Positions 1 to 26,597 of a stretch of DNA of 49,053 nt are shown piece by piece. Origin of the DNA: an uncultured bacterium (lineage in GTDB: Bacteria > Aquificota > Aquificia > Desulfurobacteriales > Desulfurobacteriaceae); assembly GCA_964545225.1 (NCBI GenBank), contig CAZJFY010000001.1, positions 1 to 49,053 on the forward strand. Direction: 5' to 3'. Made by a program: the position numbers and the translations under genes. Below the pieces are notes generated by a model. The model had not been told where the DNA came from. It saw only the letters and a list, made by a program, of their open reading frames with translations, and made no database searches. Every line of letters starts with the position of its first letter. Positions within the stretch are counted from its first letter, which is position 1.

Positions 1-423
1 TCTATCCTAGGAGGAAGGAAAACATTCGTTAATCTTGTAAAACCTTCTCTTACTACTAAGGTTTCTAACAGAGGTTTTGTTTCTAAAGTTAAAGGTTTCT
101 TTAGCAATATATGGCATACGGTTTCACCTTTTTTACAAACCTACTTACAGTACAAGCTAGCTCAACAGCAGTTAAAATGGCAGGCAAAACTAATGCAAAT
201 GGGAGGTCCTAGCTTTTTAACTACACAACCTCCTTCAACTCCTCCTCCTCCGCCGCCTTCCCCTTCATCTTCATCTTTACCATCATCACCCCCATCTTCT
301 TCCGTTCAATCAGCATTAGTTTCAACCTCATATTCTTCTTCTTTTAGTGATAAAAAATACTTGTTGTTAGGAGGAGGGGTTCTTTTACTCGTATTGCTTT
401 TAACGATGATGCGCAGGGAGTGA
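1..423 (+). CDS. C-terminal part of a tail-anchored membrane protein (5' part lies at the window 3' end or outside the window)
   Basis: Frame 1 is open from nt 1 to TGA 421-423, so the ATG at 193 in the ORF track is internal. Pro/Ser-rich linker, then C-terminal TM 'KKYLLLGGGVLLLVLLLTMM' + RRE. 'GFFSNIWHTV' and 'LQYKLAQQQL' are paralogous to 28582..29193. Confidence 0.75.
   Translation, partial: SILGGRKTFVNLVKPSLTTKVSNRGFVSKVKGFFSNIWHTVSPFLQTYLQYKLAQQQLKWQAKLMQMGGPSFLTTQPPSTPPPPPPSPSSSSLPSSPPSSSVQSALVSTSYSSSFSDKKYLLLGGGVLLLVLLLTMMRRE
220..303 (+). repeat. Pro/Ser-rich low-complexity coding tract
   Basis: 'TTQPPSTPPPPPPSPSSSSLPSSPPSSS'. Confidence 0.8.
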
Positions 424-425
424 AC

Positions 426-1076
426 ATGAGAAAGTTGCTTGTGGTTTCTTCTTTTGCTCTTATAGGATATTTTTTGTATAAGGCTTTTGGCGAATCTAGT
501 TATGCTAGTGTCGGACCAGGAGTAAGGGTTTCTCGTCCTTCGTTAATTGAAAGGATTTTATTAGATTCTTATCCTTTTGATCCTGAAAGATTTATACGCT
601 ACAGATGTATCCGTCCAGTTGATACAGTGCTGCGTAACTTTAGCTCTGGAGCTAGGCGGGTGCTTAGATACAAAAAACTGGCTCAAAGGTGGGGAGATTA
701 CTGGGGTGTTCCTTGGGTCTTAGTGTTAGCTATTATTGGAACCGAGAGCGGTGGCGATCCTTATGTTGATAGGAGAGAAGTCGCTGTTGGTGATGTTAGT
801 AGAGGGCTTATGCAATTATTGCTTAGGACAGCCAGATTCATGGGATATAAAGGTAGCCCCTCCGGGTTGTATGATCCCTCGACAAATATTTACTACGGAA
901 CTAAGTATCTAAGATACCTCTATAACAAATATCACAACTGGTTGGATGTTATAGCAGCTTATAATGCTGGCAAACCAAGGGGAGAGGGAAATGGGTGTTA
1001 CTACAATCAACGGTATGTTAATAAAGTTGTTTCTTGGCTTTATGGGTTTAAGAAAATAATGGGAATAGGAGGTTAA
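426..1076 (+). CDS. Lytic transglycosylase (SLT domain) with N-terminal TM/signal anchor
   Basis: Family-1 SLT motifs 'IIGTESGGDP' (catalytic Glu-Ser), 'SRGLMQLL', 'YYGTKYLRYL', 'AAYNAGKP'. N-terminal hydrophobic 'KLLVVSSFALIGYFLYKAF'. ATG 426 lies 5 nt after GGGAG; the track start GTG 420 is less likely. Confidence 0.9.
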   Translation: MRKLLVVSSFALIGYFLYKAFGESSYASVGPGVRVSRPSLIERILLDSYPFDPERFIRYRCIRPVDTVLRNFSSGARRVLRYKKLAQRWGDYWGVPWVLVLAIIGTESGGDPYVDRREVAVGDVSRGLMQLLLRTARFMGYKGSPSGLYDPSTNIYYGTKYLRYLYNKYHNWLDVIAAYNAGKPRGEGNGCYYNQRYVNKVVSWLYGFKKIMGIGG

Positions 1077-1078
1077 AT

Positions 1079-1648
1079 ATGCTGCCGGTGGTTGCTGCTT
1101 TGGCTTCTGCGGGGTTGAATTTATTAGCTGATGCGGTGAAAGCTAAGGGCAAAAAGATAGTGGAGAAAAAGCTAGGCATCAAGTTACCTGAGAAGCCGGA
1201 AGAGCTTACGCCTGAGAAAGTTGAAGAGCTGCATAGAATTGAGATTGATCACGAAATAGATTTGATGACGATGATAAGAGATTCTATTGAAAGTATTTCG
1301 GATTATAAGAAGTTTGAAGTTGCAGATAGGATTAGTGCTAGGCAGCATGAGGTTGCTCTAGCTACTAGTGGACAAGTCCCTGCTCTATTAAAGTATGTAA
1401 AACCTTTATTAGCTTTATTAATCACATTTCTTTGTGGAGGGTTGGTGTTTATTTTACTATTTGTTGGTGTTCCTCAAAATAAAAAGGAAATTGTTATGTT
1501 TGCTTTAGGCTCTGCTTTATCAATGTGGGGGATGGTAGTTTCGTATTATTTCGGTACATCTGAAAGCTCTTCTTATAAAGATAAAGTTTTTGAACTTCTT
1601 TTAAAAACAACAAAGCAAGAGGGCGAGAATTATGGTTCTAGAGCCTAA
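1079..1648 (+). CDS. Holin-like membrane protein (2-3 TM)
   Basis: GGAGG SD before ATG 1079. N-terminal Ala/Leu-rich segment, charged coiled region, then two TM helices 'KPLLALLITFLCGGLVFILLFVGV' and 'IVMFALGSALSMWGMVVSYYF'. The architecture resembles the 3-TM phage/GTA holin family, and the gene sits directly after the SLT gene. Confidence 0.4.
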   Translation: MLPVVAALASAGLNLLADAVKAKGKKIVEKKLGIKLPEKPEELTPEKVEELHRIEIDHEIDLMTMIRDSIESISDYKKFEVADRISARQHEVALATSGQVPALLKYVKPLLALLITFLCGGLVFILLFVGVPQNKKEIVMFALGSALSMWGMVVSYYFGTSESSSYKDKVFELLLKTTKQEGENYGSRA

Positions 1649-2084
1649 ACTTGTTATGAAGGGCAACAGGTTTTTTATAGAACCTGTTGAAGATGGGTCA
1701 TTGTTTTCTTATGATTACGGCATAGTCGAAAAGATTCTAGAGAAGGTTAAAGAGGTTCTTAGGAACTTTGAGCTTGGTTCTTTTGTTCCTGATTGTAGTT
1801 TATCTTTTAGATTGCTTAAAATTCACGGCAGTCGAGGAGATTTTTTAGTTAAACCTGATGATAGATATAAGCTTTGTATTGTTCCTGTATCTTCAAACAA
1901 AGTTCTTATATTGTCGTTTCCTAGCGATTGTCGCATCTTTTTGGACAGAAAAGAAGGAGTTTTAAATAGAGTTGTTGTTGATGCAGTTAATGGTTTGAAA
2001 GGTAGTGTTTGTGCTGTTGGTTTAGGCAAGTTTACTGAAGATGAGCTTTTGTCTCTTGTTAAGATTATACACGGGGGTAAGTGA
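1632..2084 (+). CDS. Hypothetical protein (150 aa)
   Basis: ORF overlaps both neighbours (17 nt upstream; TGATG downstream). GAGGG lies upstream of the ATG. Confidence 0.65.
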   Translation: MVLEPKLVMKGNRFFIEPVEDGSLFSYDYGIVEKILEKVKEVLRNFELGSFVPDCSLSFRLLKIHGSRGDFLVKPDDRYKLCIVPVSSNKVLILSFPSDCRIFLDRKEGVLNRVVVDAVNGLKGSVCAVGLGKFTEDELLSLVKIIHGGK

Positions 2085-3823
2085 TGGCGATACTTGGAAA
2101 TATACGAGATTCTTGGACAAATAGGCCCCCTGGGCATGGATATCGTAGCTACCCTGTTGTAGTTATTAGGGAATATGAATATCACATAAGTATATTGGAT
2201 TGTCCTTGTAAGAAGTCAACTTTAGAGCCTGTTCCGTTCGCTCATTTTGATACTTACGATCTTTCGTACTTTTATTTTGCTCAGGAGCAGAATTTAATTA
2301 GAGCTTTTACTAGAAACGCGGTTTCTCCTTTTGCTCAGAACGGTAAAAAGTCAGATAATACTTGGCTATTAGCAAGACATGTTGGAACTGTTGATTTCAA
2401 CTCGTTGTTTTATGATAAACATTCAATAGTCTGGTATCACGATTTCCGATCAGGAACCACGTACTTTCCTCATTTGTTTACTTCAACTTATAGATGTTTT
2501 ACAACTAATTGGATAATTGAGGCCTTTGAACCATCAGAAGGAGTTATGAATCTTAAGTTGTGTTCGACAGGAGCATGTTTTACTAAACAACTTAGAGACC
2601 AGTCGCTTCTAGCTGCTTTTATTGATAATGAAGGTACCACTTATTGGATAAGCGAGGGCGTTGATAGTTATTACCAGCAGCGACCTTCTAGCGATCTTCT
2701 AATTTCTCGAATTGATACATTAGGTAGACCGGGTGGCGATATTTCAAAAGATATTAGCGGTCCTCTTGGGGTTATTGTTGACTTTGATCCTGAGCTTAAA
2801 ACACTATTGTGGACGCGGCAAAGATATTTAGAAGTTAACAACTCACTTCAAGTTAATGTTTACGAGTCTATTACTAATTCTTCACGCACGGTGGATGTAC
2901 CAATTCGCTGGCCTATTTTTATTTCTCACTGGTGTAAGGTTAGCGACAGTAATACGGATGCGGTGTTTTTGACTTGCGGTTTTGATCCGAATTCTGGGTA
3001 TGTTAGCTTTTATACCATTCCATTTAATAAAGCATCTCTTACTTTTGGCTCTCCGTCCCGGATTTACGACGCTTTTTATGTCTCATCAGATCCTCAGTCT
3101 GCAGGATTTTTAAACGGACATGACATTTCTTATGAAATTGTTAAAATGCAGCCCTTTAAAGTTAACGACACCCTCTTTATCATAGCTTGGATGGAGATAA
3201 AAAAAGGGTTTGATAGAGGGTACAGAATTAACCATTTCAGTGATGCTAACGGTCGTTCCCTTTCAAGGGTTATATTGTTTAAATATTCTAACGGCTCGCT
3301 CCAAGTTGTTGACGATAAAAATGTTCCCCTTGAGCCGGTTTCCGGAGGTATTTTTGTTGAAGGGGGGTATGGCAAGCTTTTTAATGATAAAGCATCTGTT
3401 GATGTTTTTATTGATTTTACTAACGAGAGGGTATTTTTCTCAGATCCTATCTATACCGGGTATCTTGTATTATGCCTTGATGAGTGTGGTAGATTTTGGG
3501 GAGTAACGAGGGATTATAACTTAGAGCTTTTTGGCCCTAGGCTGCCGTATAGGTTTGAATTTAAAATTGAAGTTGACGAGCATCAACCATCCTCGTTCCC
3601 GGTTGATGGAAGGATTAAGATGGACATTTTTGATTATAGGGGACAAAGAATTGAAGCTGATGTCTTATTGGTTATTACTACTCCTGAAGTTTGTGAGTTT
3701 GCAGATGGTGGTTATAAGAAGCTGGTGACAACTTCTACCGAGGGTGTAACAGAGGTTCCTATAAAGGTAAAGAGGGGAGGATTGATTGTCGTTGATAGGA
3801 TAATCAAAAGACTAGGAGGGTAA
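2084..3823 (+). CDS. Large beta-rich protein with C-terminal Ig-like domain, paralog A
   Basis: ATG 2084 overlaps the upstream stop (TGATG), with GGGGG 7 nt upstream. C-terminus 'FDYRGQRIEADVLLVITTPEVCEFADGGYKKLVTTSTEGVTEVPIKVKRGGLIVV' aligns with four paralogs. Pre-domain motif 'CGRFWGVTRDYNLELF'. Confidence 0.8.
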   Translation: MAILGNIRDSWTNRPPGHGYRSYPVVVIREYEYHISILDCPCKKSTLEPVPFAHFDTYDLSYFYFAQEQNLIRAFTRNAVSPFAQNGKKSDNTWLLARHVGTVDFNSLFYDKHSIVWYHDFRSGTTYFPHLFTSTYRCFTTNWIIEAFEPSEGVMNLKLCSTGACFTKQLRDQSLLAAFIDNEGTTYWISEGVDSYYQQRPSSDLLISRIDTLGRPGGDISKDISGPLGVIVDFDPELKTLLWTRQRYLEVNNSLQVNVYESITNSSRTVDVPIRWPIFISHWCKVSDSNTDAVFLTCGFDPNSGYVSFYTIPFNKASLTFGSPSRIYDAFYVSSDPQSAGFLNGHDISYEIVKMQPFKVNDTLFIIAWMEIKKGFDRGYRINHFSDANGRSLSRVILFKYSNGSLQVVDDKNVPLEPVSGGIFVEGGYGKLFNDKASVDVFIDFTNERVFFSDPIYTGYLVLCLDECGRFWGVTRDYNLELFGPRLPYRFEFKIEVDEHQPSSFPVDGRIKMDIFDYRGQRIEADVLLVITTPEVCEFADGGYKKLVTTSTEGVTEVPIKVKRGGLIVVDRIIKRLGG

Positions 3824-3827
3824 TGTT

Positions 3828-5693
3828 ATGCCTAGGATTTTTGTTTCTACTGCTGTCTATGATAGATATACAAATCGGTATTCTTTGCCGGGAAATGAAG
3901 GTAGAATTCTTTCTTCACATTTAACTGCTTATCGTATAAAGGACTACTTAATAGTCAACGGTAGGGTTTACGATGTAAAGAAGGGCTTTAGAATGGTTCA
4001 TCCGCCGTGGGAGGCTTCTAGTATACCCGTTAGATGTGAAGATAGGTTTCTCTACCCTATTGTTTTTAGAGAGTTGTTTCATTTTGCGGTCCCGAAGGAT
4101 AGGATGAATCTTAATAATGCTATTTCTGCTATGACAGGTTTTAATCTTCCTTTTAAGTGCAAGCTTCCAAGTAGATTTTCTACTACTGTTGTATGGAATG
4201 AAGGGAAATATTACTACTATCATGTCACAAATCGAAGTAATCAGACTAGTAATAGGGTGCGTGTGGTTAAGGTTAAATGGTCTGACTTAGAGAAAAAAGT
4301 TGTTTCTCCAGAGCTTTTAAGTTTTACTAGTGGTGGACAGTATAGATTGTTTGAGATTATTCATTATCTCTTGGACGAGACGGGTACTTTTTCTGGGCTT
4401 CCGGTTAGCTATACCAACGATCAATGCGCTAACTTTTATTGTGCCCACATTCTAGGTTGGAGTTTTAAAGTGCAATATGCTATCGCTGGCAATTCACCTT
4501 TTGGATTGTATTCTTCTGCGTTAGATTGGCCTTTGCGAATAGTTAGGGTGCCAATTTTTATTGGTGTTGTTGGTGACTATGTTTACTTTTATACTTCATC
4601 CTGTGCCGTTAAGCAGCCTGCTATTAGGAGGGTCAAGTATGACGGCACGACCGATGAGCCTGTTAGATATTCTACTTTAAGCTTCCCGTATAATATTACT
4701 TCTGTTCCCACAGCTTCTTTTGCACAAGACGGAGGTTTTAGATGGTATAAGTTTGTTTATGACAATAATAACCCTGAGATCTGTTTGTGTTCTTATGATC
4801 CGAACAACAATCCTACTTCTGTATCCTATCAACCTTGTTCCATTGATACACTTCCTGAAGAGATGAATTTTAAGAATTACATTCCTAATGGCACTTTAGC
4901 TCATGGCAATGTTATTAATGCTGAGCTCGTAGAAAAAGATGGCAAAAAATACATTGTTCTCATGCCAATGAACTTTGTAGGCATGGTTGGGAGCGGCTTC
5001 GATCAGTCTAAGAATGTTTTTAACTCTAATCTTCACTTTAACCCAGCTTGTATGAAAATGTATTTGTTTGAGATTGTTAGCGATACTGAGCTCAGATTTG
5101 TTGGTAGTAAGAACATTCCTTGGAATACGCTATACATTGCCCCTCCTAGGGAAAGAGGAGATTGGACGAAGTGTTTTGTAATTTGGACACCTGAAAAAGC
5201 TTACTTCTGCAGACTAACCTGCGACGAGAGGGTTTATGAAATATATTACACTCTGTCGTTTGTAACTAGATCAGATTATCCTGAACACTTGTATTGTTTG
5301 ACATACGATGACGATCTTATAGGTATTGGCACTTTAAGTTCTTATTATCTTAGAAATACCGATTATCAGATCTGGCTTCCTACTCACCTTTATCTACTTA
5401 GTGAAAACTTACCTGAGATAATTGATGTTATCCCTGAGCGTGATTATTATGACTATCAAGGACAACCTATTAACTCCTACTTACTTCTTGATATTAAAAA
5501 TTACCTTGGTGACAGGATACGCTCTGTTGTTAGGCTTAGGATAACCACTTCAAACGCAGTATTTGAAAATGGCAGTAGGGTGATTGAGGTTACTTCCTCG
5601 ACTGAACAACCTACTAGAGTTAACTTTACTGTTAACGGTAGGGGCTCTATTGAAATAGTTGTTGAATATGTAAAGCCTATCTTTGAGCAGTAA
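3828..5693 (+). CDS. Large beta-rich protein with C-terminal Ig-like domain, paralog B
   Basis: AGGAGGG SD 3814-3820. C-terminus 'KNYLGDRIRSVVRLRITTSNAVFENGSRVIEVTSSTEQPTRVNFTVNGRGSIEIVV'. Confidence 0.8.
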   Translation: MPRIFVSTAVYDRYTNRYSLPGNEGRILSSHLTAYRIKDYLIVNGRVYDVKKGFRMVHPPWEASSIPVRCEDRFLYPIVFRELFHFAVPKDRMNLNNAISAMTGFNLPFKCKLPSRFSTTVVWNEGKYYYYHVTNRSNQTSNRVRVVKVKWSDLEKKVVSPELLSFTSGGQYRLFEIIHYLLDETGTFSGLPVSYTNDQCANFYCAHILGWSFKVQYAIAGNSPFGLYSSALDWPLRIVRVPIFIGVVGDYVYFYTSSCAVKQPAIRRVKYDGTTDEPVRYSTLSFPYNITSVPTASFAQDGGFRWYKFVYDNNNPEICLCSYDPNNNPTSVSYQPCSIDTLPEEMNFKNYIPNGTLAHGNVINAELVEKDGKKYIVLMPMNFVGMVGSGFDQSKNVFNSNLHFNPACMKMYLFEIVSDTELRFVGSKNIPWNTLYIAPPRERGDWTKCFVIWTPEKAYFCRLTCDERVYEIYYTLSFVTRSDYPEHLYCLTYDDDLIGIGTLSSYYLRNTDYQIWLPTHLYLLSENLPEIIDVIPERDYYDYQGQPINSYLLLDIKNYLGDRIRSVVRLRITTSNAVFENGSRVIEVTSSTEQPTRVNFTVNGRGSIEIVVEYVKPIFEQ

Positions 5694-6736
5694 TGGCCTG
5701 GGTAGAAATCAAAACGGAAAGTTTTACTTTTTGTGTAGAGCCTGATATTAATAAGATTGGCGACCTTAATGCCGGTTCGCTAGATTCATCTTCTAATTTT
5801 ATTGCTCATTCTGAGTGCGTTTTACAGGTGTCTTCTAAGGTTACTATTGATGGCTTTCAATCATCTGGTCCTATTTGGAAGCTATCTCAGGGCAACAATA
5901 GGGTTATGTTTGCCAAGTGTTCTTATATCCCAGTGCCCGAAACAAATTCATTCAAACCTTCCTCTTCTTACAGCCAGATGATGAATGCTCAGGGACTTAC
6001 TTGGGCAGTAGGAGAAAAGCTTGTTTTTAAAGGAACCCAAGTCTCTTCTTTTCCTTCTCTGTTTGTCGGTGAGTTTGAATTCGCTGGGAGTGGTGAGGTA
6101 GAGAATGCTGAGAATGGTGTTTGTCAGAGCGTTCCTCCCCAATATGTATTGGATTCCCAACTTTATTCAAAAGAGTATTGGGAAGTAGTGAATTCTAAGT
6201 CTGAGACTCTTTTTGTTCCTTCTTGTTCTCCTGTTATGGTTGTGTCTGAGGGGGTTAGCTTTTTGCATAATAGAAGTAATAAATTTTACTCCTTTAATCT
6301 TGTTTCTTGCCCTACTTTAGATCTTAAACTACAAAACTTCTATACTTACAAGGTTATTGATAAGATAAATACTATTGAAGGTGGAGTTTGTAAAGCAAGC
6401 CGCGAAGCTGTTTTTGTTTCTTCTCCTGATGTTTTTGAGCCTGTTGATCGACTTGGGGATATGGTTGTGGTTAGGGGAACAGATCAGTTTAATGTGTATG
6501 TAATAGTTTTTAATCCTATTTTGGATATAGAAATTGATTTACCAGATGCAAATTATAAGGTTGATGGTGTAGAAATTCCTGCCAATATTGAAGTTGATTT
6601 TGAGAACAAGAAGTTGAGGATAAAGTATCTGATTAATGAGAACCAAACTATTGTTTTAAAGGATAACGAAAACAACTCTTATTATGTTAGAATAGTACCG
6701 ATGTTTATAAATAACTTCCTCAAACCTGAAGGGTAA
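5693..6736 (+). CDS. Hypothetical structural-like protein (347 aa)
   Basis: TAATG start-stop overlap with the upstream gene. Long ORF in the operon frame pattern. Confidence 0.7.
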   Translation: MAWVEIKTESFTFCVEPDINKIGDLNAGSLDSSSNFIAHSECVLQVSSKVTIDGFQSSGPIWKLSQGNNRVMFAKCSYIPVPETNSFKPSSSYSQMMNAQGLTWAVGEKLVFKGTQVSSFPSLFVGEFEFAGSGEVENAENGVCQSVPPQYVLDSQLYSKEYWEVVNSKSETLFVPSCSPVMVVSEGVSFLHNRSNKFYSFNLVSCPTLDLKLQNFYTYKVIDKINTIEGGVCKASREAVFVSSPDVFEPVDRLGDMVVVRGTDQFNVYVIVFNPILDIEIDLPDANYKVDGVEIPANIEVDFENKKLRIKYLINENQTIVLKDNENNSYYVRIVPMFINNFLKPEG

Positions 6737-6746
6737 TGGAGGAGCG

Positions 6747-8369
6747 ATGGCGCTGGTTAGTTGTTATGCTCCTGAGTACGAAGGTTTTGTAGAATTTGAT
6801 AAAACTGTAAGTTTAAATGGTTTTTTGTTTGATAAGGTTTCCTTGTTTCCTACTATGTATTCTACAAATTTAGAAAAGCGAATTTTGTTTGCTCCTATTA
6901 GTTATGTTAGCCCTAATATTTGTTCTTATTCTGCTGCTTTTAATAACAAAACTTTTAGCTTTCCTGTTGCTGCGGATGAAAGATTCAATTTACTTAAGAC
7001 CTGTTTAGTAAGGACATTGGATAGCGGTAATAAAAAGTTTGCTTTTGTTGCTGCTGCTTCTTCAGGTGATCCTTGTTTTGTTGTAAGGCTGTATTCTGGA
7101 ACTGATACACAAATTTCTTTTGAAAAAGAGGTTAGTTTTGATGGATGCCCTGTGTTGATGTATCTTGCGGATGTTTTTCCTTCTAATCAAGATTTTATGG
7201 TTGTATATGTTGGTGGAGATGATAAAATTAGATTTGCGAGGGTTCCACCATCTGGTGATTCTTATTCTCTCCTTTTAAGTGACGATACCGGTTATATCAC
7301 TCACACCTTTCCTTCGGCTATTAAGTATCTTGGATGGATAAACAGCAATCATTATTTTGCCACAATTGCTACAACTAGCAATGTTAATGAAAGAGTGGTC
7401 AGGATTTACAAGGTAGATGTTTCGACACAAACAGCTTCACTTGAACATGAGGCGAGTTTAAGCGGATATGACATTGATTCTACTGTTGACGCGGCTTTGG
7501 TTTCTTTAAAGAGAGAAGATGGAGCAATTTATACCTTTTGTTTCTATCCGGGCGCGGCAAGTGAGTTGAAGATTAGGGGATTACTTATAGAGACTGGAGG
7601 TAATATTAATGAAATAGATGTTTCTCTTGATTTTGGAGAACATCAACCTTCTTACATACTTGCCGGATTACAAGGTTCTTTACAAGGTGTTGGAATGGTT
7701 AATGGCGAAAAAGCGGTTTTATTATCTCTTTCTCATACTTATAGGATAGTGAAGAATGCCAACAACATTCCGTGCGCATATTTCGGATACGCTTCTAGTT
7801 GGTTTAAAAGTATGTTTTCTACTTGGCAATTTGACGAAGGCCAGTCAAAGATGGTTTTAAAGGATCTTGTTAAAACTGATCTTAGGCCTGTTAACTTTCT
7901 TTTACCTCTTGATAACTCTATGAGCAAGTTTTATGTTCACTATGTTTATGGGCTAGGCAAGCTAAGTGTTAATAGTGAATTTGGAATTAAACTTGTTCCT
8001 GTTGTAACTGATAACAGGTACATGTTTGTTGGTTTTACTTCTGATGGAAAAATGTGGGGTGTTACTTCTGACAGCATAGAGCTTCTTCCTTTTTACAGAG
8101 TTGCTAAGGCGGTAAATATTACTTGGGAGAGGGAAGATTATAACTTTCAGGGTGAAGAGATAAATACTCACATAACTGTTTCTGTTGCAGATGAAGATGG
8201 AAACGCAATTTCTGGAAGGGTGAGGCTTTCTGTTTTAACTTCTAACGCTATCTTTTCCGATAGTTCTTCTTATGAGCTTACTGTTGATGTTCCGGAAGAT
8301 GGCGCTACCATACCTGTTAAAATTACGGGTCCGGGACTGATTGTCTTAGAAAGCACGATACTAGAATAG
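6747..8369 (+). CDS. Large beta-rich protein with C-terminal Ig-like domain, paralog C
   Basis: GGAGGA SD. C-terminus 'ADEDGNAISGRVRLSVLTSNAIFSDSSSYELTVDVPEDGATIPVKITGPGLIVLE' (invasin/Big-like pattern). Motif 'DGKMWGVTSDSIELLPF'. Confidence 0.8.
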   Translation: MALVSCYAPEYEGFVEFDKTVSLNGFLFDKVSLFPTMYSTNLEKRILFAPISYVSPNICSYSAAFNNKTFSFPVAADERFNLLKTCLVRTLDSGNKKFAFVAAASSGDPCFVVRLYSGTDTQISFEKEVSFDGCPVLMYLADVFPSNQDFMVVYVGGDDKIRFARVPPSGDSYSLLLSDDTGYITHTFPSAIKYLGWINSNHYFATIATTSNVNERVVRIYKVDVSTQTASLEHEASLSGYDIDSTVDAALVSLKREDGAIYTFCFYPGAASELKIRGLLIETGGNINEIDVSLDFGEHQPSYILAGLQGSLQGVGMVNGEKAVLLSLSHTYRIVKNANNIPCAYFGYASSWFKSMFSTWQFDEGQSKMVLKDLVKTDLRPVNFLLPLDNSMSKFYVHYVYGLGKLSVNSEFGIKLVPVVTDNRYMFVGFTSDGKMWGVTSDSIELLPFYRVAKAVNITWEREDYNFQGEEINTHITVSVADEDGNAISGRVRLSVLTSNAIFSDSSSYELTVDVPEDGATIPVKITGPGLIVLESTILE

Positions 8370-8380
8370 CGGGGTTGTGT

Positions 8381-10153
8381 ATGATAGCTACACGGAGTGA
8401 TTTTGTAGTGATTGATGGTATCTATTGGTTGACTTATAAAGCCACTTTTGATGTTTCTAGGAATTTGCCGGTTAAAGTGCGTGGATGCGACCAAGAAGAA
8501 ACGCAGGTTTTCCCTATTGCTATTAATGGAAAGGAGTTTGTTTCCAGTGTTGAACTAAGAAACGCACACTGGTCATGGAGGAATAGTTGGGGTCTGTATG
8601 ATATTGTGGATATATTTTTACCTGTTTTTACGCCCCTACCTTCTCCTATGGGCAATAGATATCTTTGTGGTCTTAAAAGTAGTGATGAGTGTGTTCTATT
8701 AAGAAGTAGTGTATATAACAGAACAAGGCGAGAGATTAATTATGTTAGTAATTTACATACCCGTGATGATCAGATTTTTATAGACACTTCCAATGATTGG
8801 GGGCTTGTCTTAACACCCTATCATACTACTAGCGGATCCACCCTTATGAAAGGCGGAATGATAGGGGTGCTCGAATATCAGAATGGAGAATACTCGGTTA
8901 GATACTATGGGGAGGGCGGAGGACATTATATTTTCACCCATAATGTTGTTTTTTTACCTCCTGATAGATTTTTGTGTGCTATGTCTGATTGGACGCGGCA
9001 GGATCCCTGGAAGTTTATATTTAGGTTAACTGCTTACGATCGGTCCTTTAATGTATATGGTAGTCCTGTTTGGACGAGTTTTACTGGTAAGATAACTTAT
9101 ACAATAGGTTCGTATGCTTCACGTTTTTGTGAGTTTGGTCTTCAGTTTTGTGGTTGTCCTTATGATGGCGAAGAAGTTCTATGTTATGATAAACATAGAG
9201 GTTCGTTTTTTGTGGTTTCCCGGTTTAATGTGGATGGTGATGCTGTTCAGATTGTTCCTTATTATCATCCTTCTTTTTTTGATTTCTGTACCTACTTCAG
9301 CTGCCAAAGGCCTAGGTGGAGACATACAGAATATTACTACTTTATTCTTCCTTTTAGATTTTTAATGTTTTTTGATTGGTTTGAGGATGTTCCAGTTTTA
9401 TTTTTCTTTTCTTTTGTTCCTAGTGTTGTTAATAGAACGAGTTCACTGTTATTATTCTCTATCTGGTATAAACATAGAGGGGAAGAAGTAAGTCATCTGT
9501 TAGGTGTTTGTAGTTCTTCCTGGAGCTCTGATAGATATTTCAATAACCCGACTTTTTTATTAGTGTATTTATTTGATCGCGCTCAGAGGCAGCTTACTCT
9601 ACTTGATTCTATTATGACTCTCGGCACTTCTAAATTTCTTACGGCTTTTCTAAGAATAGAAACTGGTAGATACCTGGCTTCGTTCTATGATTACTCTCGT
9701 CATAAAACTATAATTGAGGAAATTACCTTTGATCCTGGTGAGGGTAAGCTACACAGAAGACCTTTGTTTGAAGTTAACGAGTATCCAGTGGGTTATCTTG
9801 CAGTAGCTAATGTTGGAGGAAGAGAAAAGATTCTGTATCAGATAGATCATAACCATCCTTTGGTTGTATTAGGCGAAGGCACTACTTCGTTTTTGAATAT
9901 AAACTTAGTTCCTGCCCATTCACCAACATTCCCGTTTAATGCGGTTTTAAAAGTTTCTGCCTTAGATGCCTTCGGAAATAGATCGTTTGCTAGAGTGTTG
10001 CTGAGATGTGAAACATCTAATATTAAGTTTGCCGATGGGTTTACTCAAAAGGTAGTAACGATATATCCGAATGAGGACTTAGAAATACCAGTGATTGTAT
10101 CATCTCCCGGTAAAACAGTTGTTACTGGTAGGATTCTGGAGGCCTTGCTGTGA
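8381..10153 (+). CDS. Large protein with C-terminal Ig-like domain, paralog D, carrying a Phe-rich hydrophobic insert
   Basis: ATG 8381 lies 6 nt after GCGGGG (the track start is TTG 8375). C-terminus 'ALDAFGNRSFARVLLRCETSNIKFADGFTQKVVTIYPNEDLEIPVIVSSPGKTVVTG'. Confidence 0.75.
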   Translation: MIATRSDFVVIDGIYWLTYKATFDVSRNLPVKVRGCDQEETQVFPIAINGKEFVSSVELRNAHWSWRNSWGLYDIVDIFLPVFTPLPSPMGNRYLCGLKSSDECVLLRSSVYNRTRREINYVSNLHTRDDQIFIDTSNDWGLVLTPYHTTSGSTLMKGGMIGVLEYQNGEYSVRYYGEGGGHYIFTHNVVFLPPDRFLCAMSDWTRQDPWKFIFRLTAYDRSFNVYGSPVWTSFTGKITYTIGSYASRFCEFGLQFCGCPYDGEEVLCYDKHRGSFFVVSRFNVDGDAVQIVPYYHPSFFDFCTYFSCQRPRWRHTEYYYFILPFRFLMFFDWFEDVPVLFFFSFVPSVVNRTSSLLLFSIWYKHRGEEVSHLLGVCSSSWSSDRYFNNPTFLLVYLFDRAQRQLTLLDSIMTLGTSKFLTAFLRIETGRYLASFYDYSRHKTIIEEITFDPGEGKLHRRPLFEVNEYPVGYLAVANVGGREKILYQIDHNHPLVVLGEGTTSFLNINLVPAHSPTFPFNAVLKVSALDAFGNRSFARVLLRCETSNIKFADGFTQKVVTIYPNEDLEIPVIVSSPGKTVVTGRILEALL

Positions 10154-12371: not shown

Positions 12372-12719
12372 GTGATTGAGTTAGGTTCTTGGAGCTTATG
12401 TAGAACATTTAGTTTGTTTGAGGATACTGTTAGCTTTTCTGACGACTCAGAGTTTAGGGAGATTTATGACATAGCGGCTCGCATTCCTGCCGGAACATAT
12501 CCTTTTAACACTTTGTTCACGCTAAAGAATCAAAGTTCTCAGGAAAGCTTTTTTCAGTTTAAGGATGCAAACGATGTTTTGTATGCTGACATAGTTATTG
12601 AAGCAGGGAAGACTGGCGTTATTAGTTTTCCTCCTATGAAAAGCATAAAGGTGTTGCATAAAGGTGGCGCTGGTAAAATAACATTGACGGCGTTCTTGGG
12701 CAGCTTAGAGCCTGGTTAG
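12372..12719 (+). CDS. Hypothetical small beta-rich protein (115 aa)
   Basis: GTG start 5 nt after GGGAGG (12361-12366). First gene downstream of the promoter at 12339-12349. Confidence 0.65.
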   Translation: MIELGSWSLCRTFSLFEDTVSFSDDSEFREIYDIAARIPAGTYPFNTLFTLKNQSSQESFFQFKDANDVLYADIVIEAGKTGVISFPPMKSIKVLHKGGAGKITLTAFLGSLEPG

Positions 12720-16272: not shown

Positions 16273-17073
16273 ATGATTGAAACAGTTGTGGCTCATGTTA
16301 CAAAAGCAGGATACGATTTAATAGCTAGAAAGTTGGGCGGCGAAATAGAGGAGCTTAGGATAACATCAGTTGCTTTTGGAGGAGGACTTAGCCCTCGCTC
16401 TTTGGCTCCGTATAAGCCTTCAATATACGACACCTCGATTCCTAATGAGCTTTTTAGGGTTGAGGGTGATAAGATTCAAACTTTGTATGATCCTGAAGAT
16501 GGTTTAATGGTTGTAAGGGTAACTGTTGATAGAGAGCTTGCTGGAAATTATTATTTGAATGCTGTTGGTATTTATGCCAACGAAACCACTCTTTTTGCGT
16601 CTAATTCTCTTGCTCTTTTGAAAGTTGATTATGGTTCAGAGCTTGTTTTACATATCAAAATACCTTTTTTGCCCGATACTGCGTATCAGGTAATTGATGT
16701 AACACCCCCCTCTCCAGAGTCGTCGGTTTTTTGCTTAGAGACCTTTAGAGATGTTAGGACTAGTCAGCTTGTACCGGCAGGTTATTCCGGCCTAATTTAC
16801 GAAATTCAACTTTCGCAACCAGCTGTTCACTGTTACTTCACATTAGAGGTGGGGAGTGTTGTTCCTTTGGTAATAGATCATATATCAATATCCCTTGAAA
16901 CTTCGCAGTATGGTAGTGTGGTTCTGTTTAGCGATATTACTTTAGATATTTCAACCAATCCCAAGCTTTCTGTTAAAATTCCTCAGCCCTTCAGGAAGCT
17001 TGAGGTTTATAATAAACCATCTCAATCTGATGTTGTTTTTTCTGTAAATGTTACAGGTGTTAAGCTGAGGTAA
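16273..17073 (+). CDS. Fibre protein with tail-collar fibre (P2 gpH N-terminal, DUF3751-like) domain
   Basis: The N-terminus 'VVAHVTKAGYDLIARKLGGEIEELRITSVAFGGG...IPNELFRV...VRVTVDRELAGNYYLNAVGIYANETTLFA' follows the gpH pattern T-x-AG..L.A...(I)T..A.G.G ... E..R ... V(I)..E..G ... GLY..(G)TL.A. Confidence 0.6.
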   Translation: MIETVVAHVTKAGYDLIARKLGGEIEELRITSVAFGGGLSPRSLAPYKPSIYDTSIPNELFRVEGDKIQTLYDPEDGLMVVRVTVDRELAGNYYLNAVGIYANETTLFASNSLALLKVDYGSELVLHIKIPFLPDTAYQVIDVTPPSPESSVFCLETFRDVRTSQLVPAGYSGLIYEIQLSQPAVHCYFTLEVGSVVPLVIDHISISLETSQYGSVVLFSDITLDISTNPKLSVKIPQPFRKLEVYNKPSQSDVVFSVNVTGVKLR

Positions 17074-19436: not shown

Positions 19437-19455
19437 TTCCCCTCCGCTTGCTCTA

Positions 19456-19484
19456 ATTTTACTTAAATAGGGGAGAATAGTCAA
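19456..19484 (-). promoter_or_regulatory. Canonical sigma70-type promoter TTGACT-17 nt-TAAAAT for the MTase operon
   Basis: On the minus strand the -35 TTGACT is at 19484-19479, the spacer is 17 nt and the -10 TAAAAT is at 19461-19456. The SD and ATG 19436 follow immediately. Confidence 0.6.
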
Positions 19485-24514: not shown

Positions 24515-25009
24515 ATGGAAATAGAAACTCTATTTTCTATTTGTCAAGTTGGTGAAGGCAGCTCTAGTGGCAGCGGGAGCAGTGGAAGCGGTAACGGCAG
24601 CGGTAGTGGTGGTTCTGGAGGTTCTGGTTCTGTTCAGTGCGAGCAAAAACCTTATTACTACGAGGAACTTGTTTTGCTTCCCTACTCTTCTTTTAATAAT
24701 ATTGATGCCGCTGACTTTGAACTAGTTTTTGATGGTACGCAAGAGTTCAACAGGAAGCCGGTGTTTTTCTTTCAAATGATTGTAGATAACATAGGTAATA
24801 CTGATGCTTTTTTACGCATCAGTTTGGTTTCTTCTGAGAGCGAAGAAGTTTTGGACGAAATTAAAATCCCCCCCAAGATTCGTAAGATTCCATTAAATTT
24901 TGACGGGCTTATATCTTCCCTGAGGATATATGCCAGAGGGAGTTTAAAAATACAGTCTTTAGGCACTTATGGCGATCTAGAGCAAAAGATAGCTCAACCT
25001 GTTTCTTGA
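24515..25009 (+). CDS. Hypothetical protein with N-terminal Gly/Ser linker (164 aa)
   Basis: 'GEGSSSGSGSSGSGNGSGSGGSGGSGS' followed by a beta-rich domain. Weak SD (AGAGGG). Confidence 0.6.
   Translation: MEIETLFSICQVGEGSSSGSGSSGSGNGSGSGGSGGSGSVQCEQKPYYYEELVLLPYSSFNNIDAADFELVFDGTQEFNRKPVFFFQMIVDNIGNTDAFLRISLVSSESEEVLDEIKIPPKIRKIPLNFDGLISSLRIYARGSLKIQSLGTYGDLEQKIAQPVS
24551..24631 (+). repeat. Gly/Ser linker coding tract
   Basis: 'GEGSSSGSGSSGSGNGSGSGGSGGSGS'. Confidence 0.8.
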
Positions 25010-25019
25010 GGAGGGCAGG

Positions 25020-26597
25020 ATGATTAAACCAATAGCTAGGTTCAAAAGTCCAGAAATGTATAGATACGCCGACAATGGGAATAAGGTAATTTTTTATTCT
25101 GGTATTTATGACGCCCGAACATTCGGGGCCGTGATGCCAAATATTTTCTGGGGCGGGTGGAATGTTCGTGATCAAAATGTTGCTATTTTGCCTTATGTAG
25201 GATGCGGGTATGCTTCCACATTGTACGGCGGTAACATCTGTGGATATACTTGTGCATATTACAAAGATTTCTATAAGGGTGATTGGGGTTATGTTTTGCC
25301 GATAGAGAACGATAACTTTGTTGTTGCTCTAAGAGGCACACAAGCTCTTGCTGCTATCGTTGACTCTAATTGGAATACGAAGCAGCTTCCTGGCAATGTT
25401 AATTTCGGAAGTTACTATGGTATTCATAATCTTGTTAGAAAAATGCCCAACAATCAGTATGTTTTTTGTTTTGTGAACAGCTACTACGAGAGGGGAGAGC
25501 TTTTTCTTAAGTTCAACGAGCAGTTTAACATGAAACATGGATCAAAAGTGATAAGTAATTGGTGTATTCCTTACATCCACTGGTCTTCAGATATGTATAT
25601 CCTAGCTTCGAGTAATGGTTTTAACGACACTGGCAGACATATATTGTATCTCTATGACTTTAACACCGAAAGGGTAACAGTATTAACCGACTTTAAAGGT
25701 GGATATGTTAGAATCACTTCCATTCCATCTCAATTAATTGACCTAGATGAACAGACTTGGATTTACTTTATCATTCAACCTAGGGCTCAAGACAGTTTGT
25801 TTTATAGAGCCGTTAGAATTAACAAGAACTCTTTTTCCGCCCAAAGAGAAGATTGGACAGTTGATTACGGTGGTAATTCTGAGAATTCTGTTGTTTTCTT
25901 AAGGAACAATGATAGAAGATGTGGAATTGATTGCTGGGTGATGAAAGACGACGAAGGCAACCATTATCTCAATGTTTTGTTTATTTCTAGAGATGATTAT
26001 CATGCTAATGATGCATACTACAAGATTATTACCTTCAGTATCGACTTCGATAATAGGAAGCTGACCTATGTGTCCCACTACAACTTTAATCAACAAGTAT
26101 GCTCTTTTTTCCCATTGACTTCCCGATTCAATGAAATTTGTGTTCTTGGCATGTCTTCTACATTTTTCCTTGAGTTCAATTTTAATGAAAGTAAATGGAT
26201 AGATTATATCCAACCCTTTAGGTCTTTTTATGTGTTTACTGACAGTCTAGGTAGGCTATGGGCTATCGATGCTGGGCATAGATTGTATCCTATTATGAAA
26301 ACTGTTCCTGATAGTGTTTATCTTAAGCTTGAGAATCCTTATGTTGTTTATTCTGGAGAAGCTGTTGATAACAACATTCTAATAGATGTTTACAACTACC
26401 GTGGAGAGCGTATTTCTGTTGAAGGAGACCTCGTAATTTTGAGTGACAACATGGAATTCCCAGATCACTCTAAAATCAAGCATGTTGTTACAAGTAAAGA
26501 AGCAACGACTGTTGTGCCGGTCAAAATCATAGGTGGTGGTTTTTACAGCGTTGACTTCAGAATTACTTCACTAGCAGAAGGACAAGGTGGTGGATAG
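25020..26597 (+). CDS. Large beta-rich protein with C-terminal Ig-like domain, paralog E
   Basis: GAGGAGGGCA SD. C-terminus 'YNYRGERISVEGDLVILSDNMEFPDHSKIKHVVTSKEATTVVPVKIIGGGFYSVDF'. Motif 'LGRLWAIDAGHRLYPI'. Confidence 0.8.
   Translation: MIKPIARFKSPEMYRYADNGNKVIFYSGIYDARTFGAVMPNIFWGGWNVRDQNVAILPYVGCGYASTLYGGNICGYTCAYYKDFYKGDWGYVLPIENDNFVVALRGTQALAAIVDSNWNTKQLPGNVNFGSYYGIHNLVRKMPNNQYVFCFVNSYYERGELFLKFNEQFNMKHGSKVISNWCIPYIHWSSDMYILASSNGFNDTGRHILYLYDFNTERVTVLTDFKGGYVRITSIPSQLIDLDEQTWIYFIIQPRAQDSLFYRAVRINKNSFSAQREDWTVDYGGNSENSVVFLRNNDRRCGIDCWVMKDDEGNHYLNVLFISRDDYHANDAYYKIITFSIDFDNRKLTYVSHYNFNQQVCSFFPLTSRFNEICVLGMSSTFFLEFNFNESKWIDYIQPFRSFYVFTDSLGRLWAIDAGHRLYPIMKTVPDSVYLKLENPYVVYSGEAVDNNILIDVYNYRGERISVEGDLVILSDNMEFPDHSKIKHVVTSKEATTVVPVKIIGGGFYSVDFRITSLAEGQGGG

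What the first reader, a model, noticed from the sequence alone, without database searches (positions are those of the whole stretch)
2084..10153. Five-member paralog family of 525-621-aa proteins ending in a bacterial Ig-like domain
Seen: the ORFs at 2084, 3828, 6747 and 8381, plus a fifth at 25020..26597, share an alignable C-terminal domain of about 60 aa: (Y/F)xxxG(N/x)xIxxxVxLxxxTSNAxFxDxxx...TxxxGxxxxPVxIxGxGxxVV. Three of them also share a preceding 'G(R/K)xWG(V/I)TxDxxLEL' motif. Their N-terminal 450 aa or so are highly diverged and beta-rich.

Established: the Big/invasin-like pattern 'D..GN.i.g..V.l...s.a.f' is typical of adhesins and phage surface proteins.

Inference: this is a diversified adhesin/spike arsenal occupying roughly 9 kb, unusual for a 49-kb genome. 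It could mean multi-receptor or multi-host binding, or several distinct vertex or envelope spikes.
Basis: partly seen in the sequence, partly recalled or inferred. Interest (0 to 1): 0.7.

Follow-up and report, generated by a model that had tools for sequence, protein, structure and literature searches.

The report
Five propeller-plus-Ig phage virion paralogs
Five genes in this hydrothermal-vent phage fragment encode diverged copies of one uncharacterised protein family also found in jumbo phages, and they are probably a fixed set of tail-associated host-binding proteins rather than anything exotic.

Summary
The ORFs at 2084, 3828, 6747, 8381 and 25020 share a C-terminal module of about 125 aa. 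Leave-one-out profiles recover each member at E 3e-10 to 1.5e-26, against 0.008 or worse for any other ORF.

The module is one end of a whole-protein family, not a free domain. An exhaustive search found 636 cluster representatives, nearly all 500-700 aa with the module at the extreme C-terminus. AlphaFold2 models ORF 25020 (pLDDT 87.7) as a roughly seven-bladed beta-propeller followed by a 6-7-strand beta-sandwich.

With the C-terminus removed, three more paralogs still match the family's propeller profile; 8381 does not. 'Ig-like' is supported by fold and by weak profile similarity to Big_1-type repeats. No member reaches any Pfam threshold.

The '49-kb genome' premise is wrong: the same sequence lies in an 84-kb contig. 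Named relatives occur only in jumbo phages (AR9/PBS1, BpSp, RP12/RP31, PaBG), with up to three copies. One is annotated 'virion protein', and neighbours are tail-fibre-type genes.

A relative keeps the same array with orthologs only 29-32% identical, so the duplications are old. The likely role, tail or baseplate host binding, is inferred. Interest is moderate.

The parts
2084..3823 (+). Paralog 1 (579 aa from the ATG at 2084): diverged beta-propeller plus the shared C-terminal module
   Evidence: C-terminal module recovered at leave-one-out E 1.5e-26. With the last 135 aa removed, its small family (with P0007 and P0014) matches the main family's propeller profile at 81% probability, E 1.2e-5, over 155 collinear columns. 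Its ortholog is 29% identical in relative L012. The N-terminus 'MAIL...KSTLEPVPF' fits the family N-terminal motif.
3828..5693 (+). Paralog 2 (621 aa)
   Evidence: Leave-one-out E 3.5e-18. N-terminus-only hhalign gives 97% probability, E 6e-11, over 186 columns. An independent N-terminal HMM domain hit scores E 1e-6. PHROG 20698 matches at E 6e-11. Ortholog P0011 is 32% identical and sits next to the paralog-1 ortholog in L012.
5693..6736 (+). 347-aa ORF lying inside the array; not a family member, but its position is conserved
   Evidence: No match to either family profile. A homolog (42% identity over 139 aa) occupies the same position in L012.
6747..8369 (+). Paralog 3 (540 aa)
   Evidence: Leave-one-out E 1.2e-20. 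A single end-to-end alignment to the non-window family profile covers profile positions 13-541. N-terminus-only hhalign gives 95% probability, E 4e-8. The N-terminal motif 'GFLFDKVSLFP' matches.
8381..10153 (+). Paralog 4 (590 aa): C-terminal module certain, N-terminal homology not shown
   Evidence: Leave-one-out E 3.4e-10. N-terminus-only hhalign is at background, 0.7% probability. In the AlphaFold2 model only residues ~370-590 are confident; the mean pLDDT is 60. The six best BFVD matches of that model are the same family members. No homolog of its N-terminal region turned up among the 150 best-scoring family representatives examined.
25020..26597 (+). Paralog 5 (525 aa): the canonical family member
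   Evidence: Matches the non-window family profile end to end at E 3e-86. Its N-terminal region clusters with those of 112 of the other 138 compared proteins. The AlphaFold2 model has pLDDT 87.7 and pTM 0.87: about seven four-stranded blades (residues ~90-425) plus a 6-7-strand sandwich (432-518). Orthologs are 47% (L006), 39% (L014) and 29% (L013) identical.
3446..3820 (+). Shared C-terminal module of paralog 1 (last propeller blade plus Ig-like sandwich). The equivalent segments are about 5316-5690, 7992-8366, 9776-10150 and 26220-26594
   Evidence: Alignment A2. HMM domain envelopes.
24515..25009 (+). Small ORF (164 aa, Gly/Ser-rich N-terminus) directly upstream of paralog 5; conserved upstream partner in relatives
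   Evidence: Homologs lie directly upstream of the paralog-5 orthologs in L006 (44% identity) and L014 (29%).
420..1648 (+). Context: SLT lytic transglycosylase (420-1076) and a 189-aa ORF with two hydrophobic stretches that look like membrane segments (1079-1648), just upstream of the array
   Evidence: Pfam SLT at E 5e-21. PHROG hits include lytic tail and endolysin families. In relative L014 the same block sits directly upstream of the paralog-5 ortholog. The membrane-segment reading comes from inspecting the sequence in alignment A7; no topology prediction was run.
16273..17073 (+). Context: protein with a tail-collar-fibre N-terminal-like domain
   Evidence: Pfam Phage_tail_fib at E 3e-4, 21.2 bits against a cut-off of 23, so just below threshold. 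PHROG 4618 'tail collar fiber protein' at E 6e-5.

Best explanation
The five genes are old, diverged paralogs of one uncharacterised phage protein family. Each protein (525-621 aa) is predicted to be a roughly seven-bladed beta-propeller. A short conserved N-terminal motif, a conserved last blade (D-x-x-G-R-x-W) and a conserved C-terminal Ig-like beta-sandwich flank blades that vary much more.

Proposed mechanism (inferred). The proteins are virion components of the tail or baseplate-fibre region. The conserved 'base' (N-terminal motif, last blade and sandwich) would dock each copy onto a common or similar site on the tail. The variable blades would present different binding surfaces to the host envelope. 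The phage would then carry five non-redundant binding modules. The set is fixed, in the way phiKZ carries gp131 and its paralogs on its baseplate fibres; it is not a rapidly shuffled arsenal.

Shown: the paralogy, the predicted fold, the family's distribution, and conservation of the array in a relative. Inferred: virion location (from one annotated homolog and from gene neighbourhoods), the docking-versus-binding division of labour (from the conservation gradient only), and the ligands (unknown).
For: Paralogy:
- Leave-one-out and non-window profiles.
- N-terminus-only profile comparisons of 97%, 95% and 81% probability for three paralogs against the family of the fourth, with six unrelated neighbouring proteins and all reversed sequences at 2.5% or less.

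Fold:
- AlphaFold2 model with pLDDT 87.7 and pTM 0.87, all-beta.
- Foldseek against PDB returns only beta-propeller proteins, including integrin alpha-V, which has a propeller followed by an Ig-like domain.

Family:
- 636 representatives at E <= 1e-3. Nearly all of the best 150 are 500-700 aa with the module at the extreme C-terminus.
- 113 of 139 N-terminal regions form one BLAST cluster that contains ORF 25020.

Virion and tail context:
- AR9 g193 is annotated 'virion protein' and lies near a beta-helix protein, other virion proteins, an amidase and the tape-measure gene.
- The RP12 copies ORF148, 149 and 152 abut 'putative tail fiber protein' ORF153.
- Metagenomic locus L096 has two adjacent copies among genes with Mtd_N, He_PIG/Gly_rich and collagen-like domains.
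- The window has a tail-collar-fibre-like gene downstream of the array.

Conservation gradient across 60 relatives:
- Sandwich 0.54, last blade 0.46, N-terminal motif 0.42, then blades six to one falling from 0.39 to 0.26.
- All invariant or nearly invariant positions lie in the N-terminal motif, the last blade or the sandwich.
- Orthologs are 36-60% identical in the C-terminal 125 aa and 26-44% in the rest.

Fixed set:
- L012 keeps the order 189-aa gene, small ORF, paralog 1, paralog 2, 347-aa ORF, paralog 3.
- There are no DNA repeats between the copies.
Against: - No experiment places any member at a particular site in the virion.
- Virion proteomics of RP31 (32 proteins) and BpSp (23 proteins) did not list their family members (PMC4870245). 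Both lists are short.
- In most phage receptor-binding proteins the conserved anchor is N-terminal and the variable part is C-terminal; here the order is reversed.
- The N-terminal region of ORF 8381 could not be tied to the family.
- The genes directly upstream (SLT and a 189-aa ORF with two hydrophobic, possibly membrane, stretches) could be a lysis cassette rather than tail genes.
- No tail sheath, tube or baseplate gene was identified in the window.
Confidence: 0.55

Rival explanations
1. The propellers are enzymes, such as glycosidases, lyases or esterases acting as capsule or exopolysaccharide depolymerases. The Ig-like domain would be a carbohydrate-binding or spacer module, and the five copies would cut five different surface polymers.
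For: Many beta-propellers are glycoside hydrolases; a GH43 protein is among the Foldseek matches. Two distant family members show sub-threshold similarity to the endosialidase beta-barrel domain, at E 1.5e-6 and 6.5e-3, both below the Pfam cut-off. Large phages are known to carry several depolymerases (own knowledge).
Against: No position in blades one to six is invariant or nearly invariant across 60 relatives, so there is no conserved catalytic site. None of the five window proteins or 60 relatives matches any Pfam enzyme family. The structural matches are generic propellers with TM-scores of 0.2-0.37, mostly non-enzymatic scaffolds.
Confidence: 0.12
2. They are capsid or tail decoration proteins. 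The Ig-like domain would be the exposed adhesin, as in Hoc-type weak adherence to mucus or surfaces, and the propeller would be the anchor.
For: Ig-like domains are common on phage decoration proteins (own knowledge). The C-terminal domain resembles tandem Ig-like repeats of large bacterial surface proteins.
Against: An exposed adhesin would be expected to vary most, yet the sandwich is the most conserved part. The gene neighbourhoods are of the tail-fibre type, not head genes. Five distinct decoration proteins of 60-70 kDa would be unusual.
Confidence: 0.12
3. The proteins are not structural. They would act inside or on the infected cell, for example in lysis regulation, envelope remodelling, superinfection exclusion or counter-defence, as hinted by the adjacent peptidoglycan hydrolase and 189-aa ORF with two hydrophobic stretches.
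For: A peptidoglycan hydrolase, then one to three small ORFs, then a family gene recurs in the window, L014, AR9 and BpSp. The family members were not detected in the RP31 and BpSp virion proteomes.
Against: AR9 g193 is annotated as a virion protein. The BpSp hydrolase in that block is itself virion-borne and binds a baseplate protein (PMC4870245), so the block may be structural. No signal peptide or membrane segment is obvious in the five sequences by eye, though none was predicted formally. The family genes lie within the same-strand gene block that holds the tail-collar-fibre-like gene.
Confidence: 0.13
4. Only the C-terminal module is shared. It would be a mobile domain grafted onto unrelated proteins, so there is no five-member paralog family.
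For: Pairwise BLAST sees only the C-terminus. The N-terminal region of ORF 8381 has no detectable relative.
Against: With the C-terminus removed, three paralogs still match the propeller profile of the fourth paralog's family collinearly. All five have similar lengths and carry the module at the extreme C-terminus, as do nearly all of the best 150 relatives. The last propeller blade is part of the shared module.
Confidence: 0.05

Closest known systems
Uncharacterised jumbo-phage proteins: Bacillus phage AR9 g193 / PBS1 gp83, BpSp gp253, Ralstonia phage RP12 ORF148/149/152 (and the RP31 counterparts), three Pseudomonas phage PaBG proteins; PHROGs 20698, 22549 and 38139
   Same: This is the same family. 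The family profile matches RP12 ORF148 and ORF149 end to end (E 1e-64 to 1e-67), ORF152 over most of its length, and the C-terminal half of AR9 g193 (E 4e-36). These proteins are the best structural matches in BFVD, at E 7e-28 to 3e-18 and TM up to 0.64. The PHROG profiles match at their C-terminal ends. RP12 and PaBG also carry several copies.
   Different: The window carries five copies, against one to three elsewhere. Sequence identity to the named phages is below tblastn detection. The source is a hydrothermal-vent contig of at least 84 kb, not a sequenced jumbo phage of over 200 kb. None of these relatives has an assigned function.
phiKZ gp131 and its paralogs gp132-gp135 (baseplate-fibre proteins; gp131 C-terminal domain is a seven-bladed propeller, Sycheva 2012; phiKZ structural atlas PMC13250141)
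   Same: Both are tandem paralog sets of tail proteins that contain a beta-propeller, in a large phage. In phiKZ the copies assemble together on the baseplate periphery and are proposed to bind the host. This is the best model for how the window's set might work.
   Different: The domain order is reversed. In phiKZ the shared part is an N-terminal region that joins a six-helix bundle, and the propeller is C-terminal. Here the shared part is C-terminal and all-beta, and the propeller is N-terminal. No phage structure appears among the 50 best PDB matches listed.
Beta-propeller receptor-binding proteins of Gram-positive phages (for example Staphylococcus phage phi11 RBP and P68 RBP)
   Same: A propeller serves as the host-binding platform of a baseplate-attached protein (papers listed; details from own knowledge).
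   Different: Those proteins are trimers with an N-terminal anchor and stem. Their propellers have a different blade number, and there is no C-terminal Ig-like module. No sequence or close structural relationship was found here.
Bacterial Ig-like domains Big_1 / Invasin_D3 (Pfam PF02369, PF09134)
   Same: The C-terminal profile picks up tandem repeats of giant surface proteins that Pfam labels Big_1, Invasin_D3 or CarboxypepD_reg. The motif 'D..G.RI....V.L.I' is shared, and a 6-7-strand sandwich is predicted.
   Different: None of 65 family proteins reaches any Pfam Ig-like model. Per-repeat scores are only 2-14 bits. The domain here is single, terminal and fused to the last propeller blade.
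Integrin alpha-chain headpiece (seven-bladed propeller followed by the Ig-like 'thigh' domain)
   Same: Same domain order, and it is among the better PDB matches, with query TM-scores of 0.34-0.37.
   Different: This is a structural analogy only: 8-9% identity, a eukaryotic protein, and no implied homology.

Membership tests
Propeller-plus-sandwich phage family (PHROG 20698/22549/38139; AR9 g193 / RP12 ORF148 type) | C-terminal module of about 95-125 aa matching the family profile, placed at the extreme C-terminus of a 500-700-aa protein | tested here: met
   All five ORFs match a profile built without any window sequence, at E 2e-10 to 3e-86. The PHROG matches fall at the C-terminal ends of the profiles. 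Lengths are 525-621 aa.
Propeller-plus-sandwich phage family (PHROG 20698/22549/38139; AR9 g193 / RP12 ORF148 type) | N-terminal region homologous to the family's beta-propeller | tested here: inconclusive
   Met for 25020 (end-to-end match, confident model). Met for 3828 (97%) and 6747 (95%), and moderately for 2084 (81%), with the C-terminus removed. Not detectable for 8381, where the profile comparison gives 0.7% and the N-terminal model is low-confidence.
Propeller-plus-sandwich phage family (PHROG 20698/22549/38139; AR9 g193 / RP12 ORF148 type) | Conserved N-terminal motif MA...E...G..HDK.TL.P.F | tested here: inconclusive
   Clear in 25020 (E 3e-10) and present in 6747 (E 0.009, at the right position). 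Only the 'KSTLEPVPF' part is seen in 2084. It is not scored in 3828 or 8381, though by eye similar strings exist.
Pfam bacterial Ig-like domains (Big_1, Big_2, Invasin_D3 and relatives) | Sequence match above the Pfam gathering score | tested here: not met
   No Ig-like Pfam family matched the five full-length proteins or their C-termini, even at E up to 10. None matched any of the 60 relatives.
Pfam bacterial Ig-like domains (Big_1, Big_2, Invasin_D3 and relatives) | Ig-like beta-sandwich fold | tested here: inconclusive
   The AlphaFold2 model shows six to seven strands in residues 432-518 at pLDDT above 90, and integrin-type propeller-plus-Ig proteins are among the matches. No fold search of the isolated domain was possible. 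The profile link to Big_1-labelled repeats is weak.
phiKZ gp131-like baseplate-fibre paralogs | Shared N-terminal attachment region that joins a six-helix bundle under the baseplate | tested here: not met
   The region shared here is C-terminal. The model has only one short helix. The phiKZ description is taken from PMC13250141.
phiKZ gp131-like baseplate-fibre paralogs | C-terminal seven-bladed propeller related to the gp131 C-terminal domain | tested here: not met
   The propeller here is N-terminal. No phiKZ or other phage structure is among the 50 best PDB matches listed, and the PDB sequence-profile search gives nothing significant.
phiKZ gp131-like baseplate-fibre paralogs | Location at the baseplate periphery or on the fibres | not testable with these tools
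   This needs cryo-EM or immuno-labelling of a cultured carrier phage.
Catalytic beta-propellers (sialidase, GH43-type hydrolases, lactonases) | Conserved catalytic residues, or a match to an enzyme family model | tested here: not met
   There are no invariant or nearly invariant columns in blades one to six and no enzyme Pfam match. The only hints are sub-threshold End_beta_barrel hits in two distant relatives.

The most novel reading that the evidence does not exclude
The family is a previously unrecognised, widespread class of phage host-recognition module with reversed polarity. A conserved C-terminal Ig-like 'plug', with the last propeller blade, would insert into the tail, while a fast-evolving seven-bladed propeller forms the distal ligand-binding head. 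The five copies in this vent phage would co-assemble into a hetero-oligomeric, multi-ligand baseplate crown, comparable to phiKZ's hetero-hexameric fibre base but built from an unrelated fold arrangement.
Probability: 0.25. Interest if true: 0.6.

Novelty: new variant of a known kind. Interest (0 to 1): 0.4.

Why it matters
- **An uncharacterised family gets a fold.** Tandem sets of paralogous tail proteins are a known way for large phages to widen or stabilise host recognition. This family has no Pfam model, no solved structure and no assigned function. Yet it has at least 636 sequence clusters in metagenomes and sits in well-studied jumbo phages (AR9/PBS1, RP12, PaBG). A confident fold model and a conservation map turn a block of 'hypothetical proteins' into testable candidates for adsorption proteins.
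- **Link to a vent phage.** The family connects a very dark hydrothermal-vent phage, in which almost no window protein has a database match, to the jumbo-phage gene pool.
- **Caveat.** The five-copy array is the largest seen here but is not different in kind. The biological claim rests on inference from gene context.

Tried and rejected
- **Direct DNA and protein searches in named phages.** Megablast of 25 kb, and tblastn of ORFs 3828, 25020, 41108 and 32441 against 50,697 phage records, found nothing. Only more central family members (P0060, P0099) reached AR9/PBS1 and RP12.
- **Word-indexed homolog searches.** Run with alignments A1 and A3, these returned only the query proteins themselves and two close relatives. 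The exhaustive HMMER search was what revealed the family.
- **IMG/VR scans.** Scans with ORF 25020, P0060 and P0008 found nothing, and the alignments were too diverged for pattern design.
- **Copy-number survey through the neighbouring gene.** The single metagenome scan, anchored on the conserved 189-aa neighbour, returned 80 loci, mostly with contig names of the Ga0181xxx series that I take (from memory of JGI project naming, not checked) to be freshwater samples. None carries the family, so that gene is not linked to it. This was a dead end for copy number.
- **GTDB genome scans for a host or prophage.** Nothing found.
- **PDB searches.** Sequence-profile searches gave only insignificant propeller-like hits.
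- **phiKZ gp131 membership.** This was my first idea. I rejected it because the domain order is reversed and no structural match was found.
- **Extending the family to ORFs 5693, 10150, 12739 and 14527.** No support.
- **AlphaFold2 on ORF 8381.** The N-terminal model was low-confidence, so the fifth member's propeller remains unproven.
- **Recent duplication or gene conversion.** No DNA repeats between the copies.

Full report
**1. The observation**

The window has a single-strand run of large ORFs. All-against-all BLASTP of 15 of them links 2081/2084, 3828, 6747, 8375/8381 and 25020 to one another. The links run only through their last 70-125 residues, at 37-59 bits.

I tested this against chance in two ways.
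- Profiles built from four C-termini each recovered the fifth, at E 3.4e-10 to 1.5e-26. The best of the other ~100 window ORFs scored E >= 0.008.
- A profile built only from relatives found elsewhere, with no window sequence in it, recovered exactly these five ORFs at E 2e-10 to 3e-86. The next ORF scored 0.096.

So the shared module is real. It is about 95-125 aa long rather than 60. ORFs 5693, 10150, 12739 and 14527, which sit in or beside the array, are not members. No DNA-level repeats link the copies.

**2. Where the window comes from**

The window is an ENA metagenome scaffold of exactly 49,053 bp. The same sequence lies inside a JGI contig of 84,187 bp and an ENA contig of 64,885 bp labelled 'hydrothermal vent metagenome'. 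Beyond the right end of the window the contig continues into a minus-strand replication module with a UvrD-type helicase, a DnaG-type primase, an SNF2 helicase and a methyltransferase. The genome is therefore at least 84 kb, not 49 kb.

The element is a bacteriophage of a peptidoglycan-walled host. It encodes an SLT transglycosylase, three PG_binding_1 proteins, a transglutaminase-like protein, a tyrosine integrase and a protein with a tail-collar-fibre-like N-terminus. Almost nothing else matches Pfam, PHROGs or any of 50,697 phage records.

**3. The module belongs to a whole-protein family**

An exhaustive HMMER search with the five C-termini against 1.84 billion cluster representatives gave 636 proteins at E <= 1e-3 and 185 at E <= 1e-10.
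- Nearly all of the best 150 are 500-700 aa, with the match at the extreme C-terminus.
- The exceptions are a few giant proteins made of tandem repeats.
- When the last 125 aa were cut off, 113 of 139 N-terminal regions still formed one BLAST cluster, and ORF 25020 belongs to it.

ORF 25020 is therefore the canonical member. ORFs 2084, 3828 and 6747 each have only one or two close relatives. ORF 8381 has none among the sequences examined.

**4. Fold**

AlphaFold2 on ORF 25020 with a 60-sequence family alignment gave pLDDT 87.7 and pTM 0.87. The chain is all-beta. About seven groups of four strands span residues ~90-425, and a compact 6-7-strand unit spans 432-518.

Foldseek against PDB returned only beta-propeller proteins: the clathrin terminal domain, DDB1, WD40 proteins, and integrin alpha chains whose propeller is followed by an Ig-like domain. 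TM-scores were 0.2-0.37, and no phage structure appeared.

Against predicted viral structures, the best matches were an uncultured Caudovirales protein, two Ralstonia phage RP12 proteins, a 644-aa protein (A0A141HSE4, which I take to be Bacillus phage BpSp gp253 from its length and accession series; this was not checked), and three Pseudomonas phage PaBG proteins. These scored E 7e-28 to 2e-8 and TM up to 0.64, and all those with a name on record are 'uncharacterized'.

The 'GRxW' motif is the last propeller blade. D408 and W414 are invariant and R412 nearly so.

**5. Are all five full-length paralogs?**

I removed the last 135 aa and compared the remaining profiles with hhalign.

| Query (C-terminus removed) | Probability | E-value | Columns |
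|---|---|---|---|
| ORF 3828 family | 97% | 6e-11 | 186 collinear |
| ORF 6747 family | 95% | 4e-8 | 192 |
| ORF 2084 family | 81% | 1e-5 | 155 |
| ORF 8381 | 0.7% | background | - |
| Six other window proteins and all reversed sequences | 2.5% or less | - | - |

A family-wide N-terminal motif (MA...E...G..HDK.TL.P.F) is clear in 25020 and 6747 and partial in 2084.

AlphaFold2 on ORF 8381 gave a confident model only for residues ~370-590, with a mean pLDDT of 60. The six best BFVD matches of that model were again the family. So four of the five are shown to be whole-length paralogs. The fifth certainly has the C-terminal third, and its N-terminus remains open.

**6. Is the C-terminus a 'bacterial Ig-like domain'?**

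By fold prediction it is a small beta-sandwich. By sequence, the profile hits tandem repeats of giant surface proteins that Pfam labels Big_1, Invasin_D3 or CarboxypepD_reg. Each repeat scores only 2-14 bits. None of the five proteins or 60 relatives reaches any Pfam model. 'Ig-like' is reasonable. 'Big/invasin family member' was tested and not met.

**7. Who else has it, and in what context**

Named carriers found by tblastn and fold search are all jumbo phages.
- **Bacillus AR9/PBS1.** g193 is annotated 'virion protein'. It lies near a beta-helix protein, other virion proteins, an amidase and the tape-measure gene.
- **BpSp.** gp253 lies two genes from the virion-borne GH25 gp255, which binds a baseplate protein (PMC4870245).
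- **Ralstonia RP12/RP31.** ORF148, 149 and 152 lie next to 'putative tail fiber protein' ORF153.
- **PaBG.** Three proteins match by structure.

A 59.5-kb metagenomic contig has two adjacent copies among genes with Mtd_N, He_PIG/Gly_rich and collagen-like domains. A Tara contig and a 126-kb contig have one copy each in the stretches examined.

The short virion proteomes of RP31 and BpSp did not list their copies. Copy number elsewhere is therefore one to three, and five is the highest seen here.

**8. Relatives of this phage**

A 7-kb ENA contig (L012) keeps the order 189-aa gene, small ORF, paralog 1, paralog 2, 347-aa ORF, paralog 3. The propeller proteins are 29-32% identical to the window's, against 60% for the 189-aa neighbour.

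A 41.5-kb contig (L014) and a 78-kb contig (L006) carry orthologs of paralog 5 at 39% and 47% identity, within conserved gene order.

The duplications therefore predate the split of these phages, and each copy has been kept. The propeller proteins also evolve faster than several neighbours. Within the family, conservation falls from the sandwich (0.54) through the last blade (0.46) and the N-terminal motif (0.42) to the early blades (0.26-0.33). Orthologs are 36-60% identical in the C-terminal 125 aa and 26-44% elsewhere.

**9. Mechanism**

The best-supported reading is a fixed set of five tail- or baseplate-associated proteins.
- The conserved parts (N-terminal motif, last blade, sandwich) would dock onto the particle.
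- The variable blades would contact host surface structures.

This resembles how phiKZ mounts gp131 and its paralogs on its baseplate fibres (PMC13250141). The domain order is reversed, however, and no homology was detected, so it is a functional analogy and not membership.

The virion location rests on one depositor annotation and on gene neighbourhoods. The division of labour rests only on the conservation gradient. Both steps are inferred.

Rival readings are an enzyme, a decoration protein, a non-structural role and domain grafting. They are weighed in their own section. None is excluded by experiment, but each has specific evidence against it.

**10. Verdict**

The finding is a five-copy expansion of a real, widespread, wholly uncharacterised phage family that now has a confident fold model. 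It is of moderate interest. It is not an anomaly of a small genome.

Noticed in passing
window 1 (left end): The ENA scaffold and the independent 84-kb JGI contig both end at exactly window position 1. This may mark a physical genome end or a repeat that breaks assembly. The truncated first ORF (1-420) matches a 203-aa gene that in relative L014 follows the ortholog of the 915-aa protein.
   Followed up: partly
window 420-2084 compared with L014 8361-9983: There is a gene-order difference between relatives. In L014 the block SLT, 187-aa gene, 139-aa gene sits directly upstream of the paralog-5 ortholog. In the window, and in L012, the SLT and 189-aa block sits upstream of paralog 1, and paralog 5 is preceded only by the 164-aa ORF. 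This suggests the array arose or moved by rearrangement around this block.
   Followed up: partly
window 1079-1648: This 189-aa protein has two hydrophobic stretches that look like membrane segments and lies next to the SLT gene. The metagenome scan found 93 relatives (80 kept), most about 30% identical; I take their contig names to be freshwater samples, which was not checked. None of the 80 loci carries the propeller family. It matches PHROGs of unknown function.
   Followed up: partly
window 41108-47275: This 2055-aa ORF lies directly after the integrase gene. It has no Pfam, PHROG or phage tblastn match. In another metagenome the same region is called as two genes of 289 and 1766 aa. It could be a tape-measure-like or other giant virion protein, but it is unassigned.
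   Followed up: partly
window 27978-28571, 30647-31207, 36108-36638, 36566-37207: This is a second paralog set. Three proteins carry PG_binding_1 domains, and 30647 and 36108 cross-match each other's orthologs. Next to them is a transglutaminase-core protein that is 74-84% identical in relatives, the most conserved gene seen.
   Followed up: no
window 24515-25009, 1632-2084, 12372-12719; L002 10055-10432; L097 6022-6420; L095 9749-9997; L096 9740-9991: A small ORF of 80-165 aa sits directly upstream of family genes in nearly every locus examined. The versions in the window, L006 and L014 are homologous to one another, and so are the AR9 and BpSp versions, but no similarity across the two groups was detected. 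ORF 24515 has a Gly/Ser-rich low-complexity N-terminus. It may be an adaptor or chaperone.
   Followed up: partly
window 12739-14523 and 14527-16263: These two adjacent ORFs of about 590 aa show two weak but collinear similarities, at E 0.06 and 0.11 in a single pairwise comparison. They may be another very old tandem duplication. Neither has any database match.
   Followed up: partly
window 18606-19484 (- strand): This is an N6/N4 DNA methyltransferase (JGI call 18606-19484; ENA call shorter, about 18606-19436), one of the few minus-strand ORFs in a block otherwise read on the plus strand. No methyltransferase is called at the corresponding position in relative L014, so it may be an insertion.
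   Followed up: no
L009 19528-19860 (contig beyond the window): The replication module just outside the window includes a protein with a STIV_B116-like domain, a family first described in an archaeal virus (the origin is from memory), alongside UvrD, DnaG-type and SNF2 genes.
   Followed up: no
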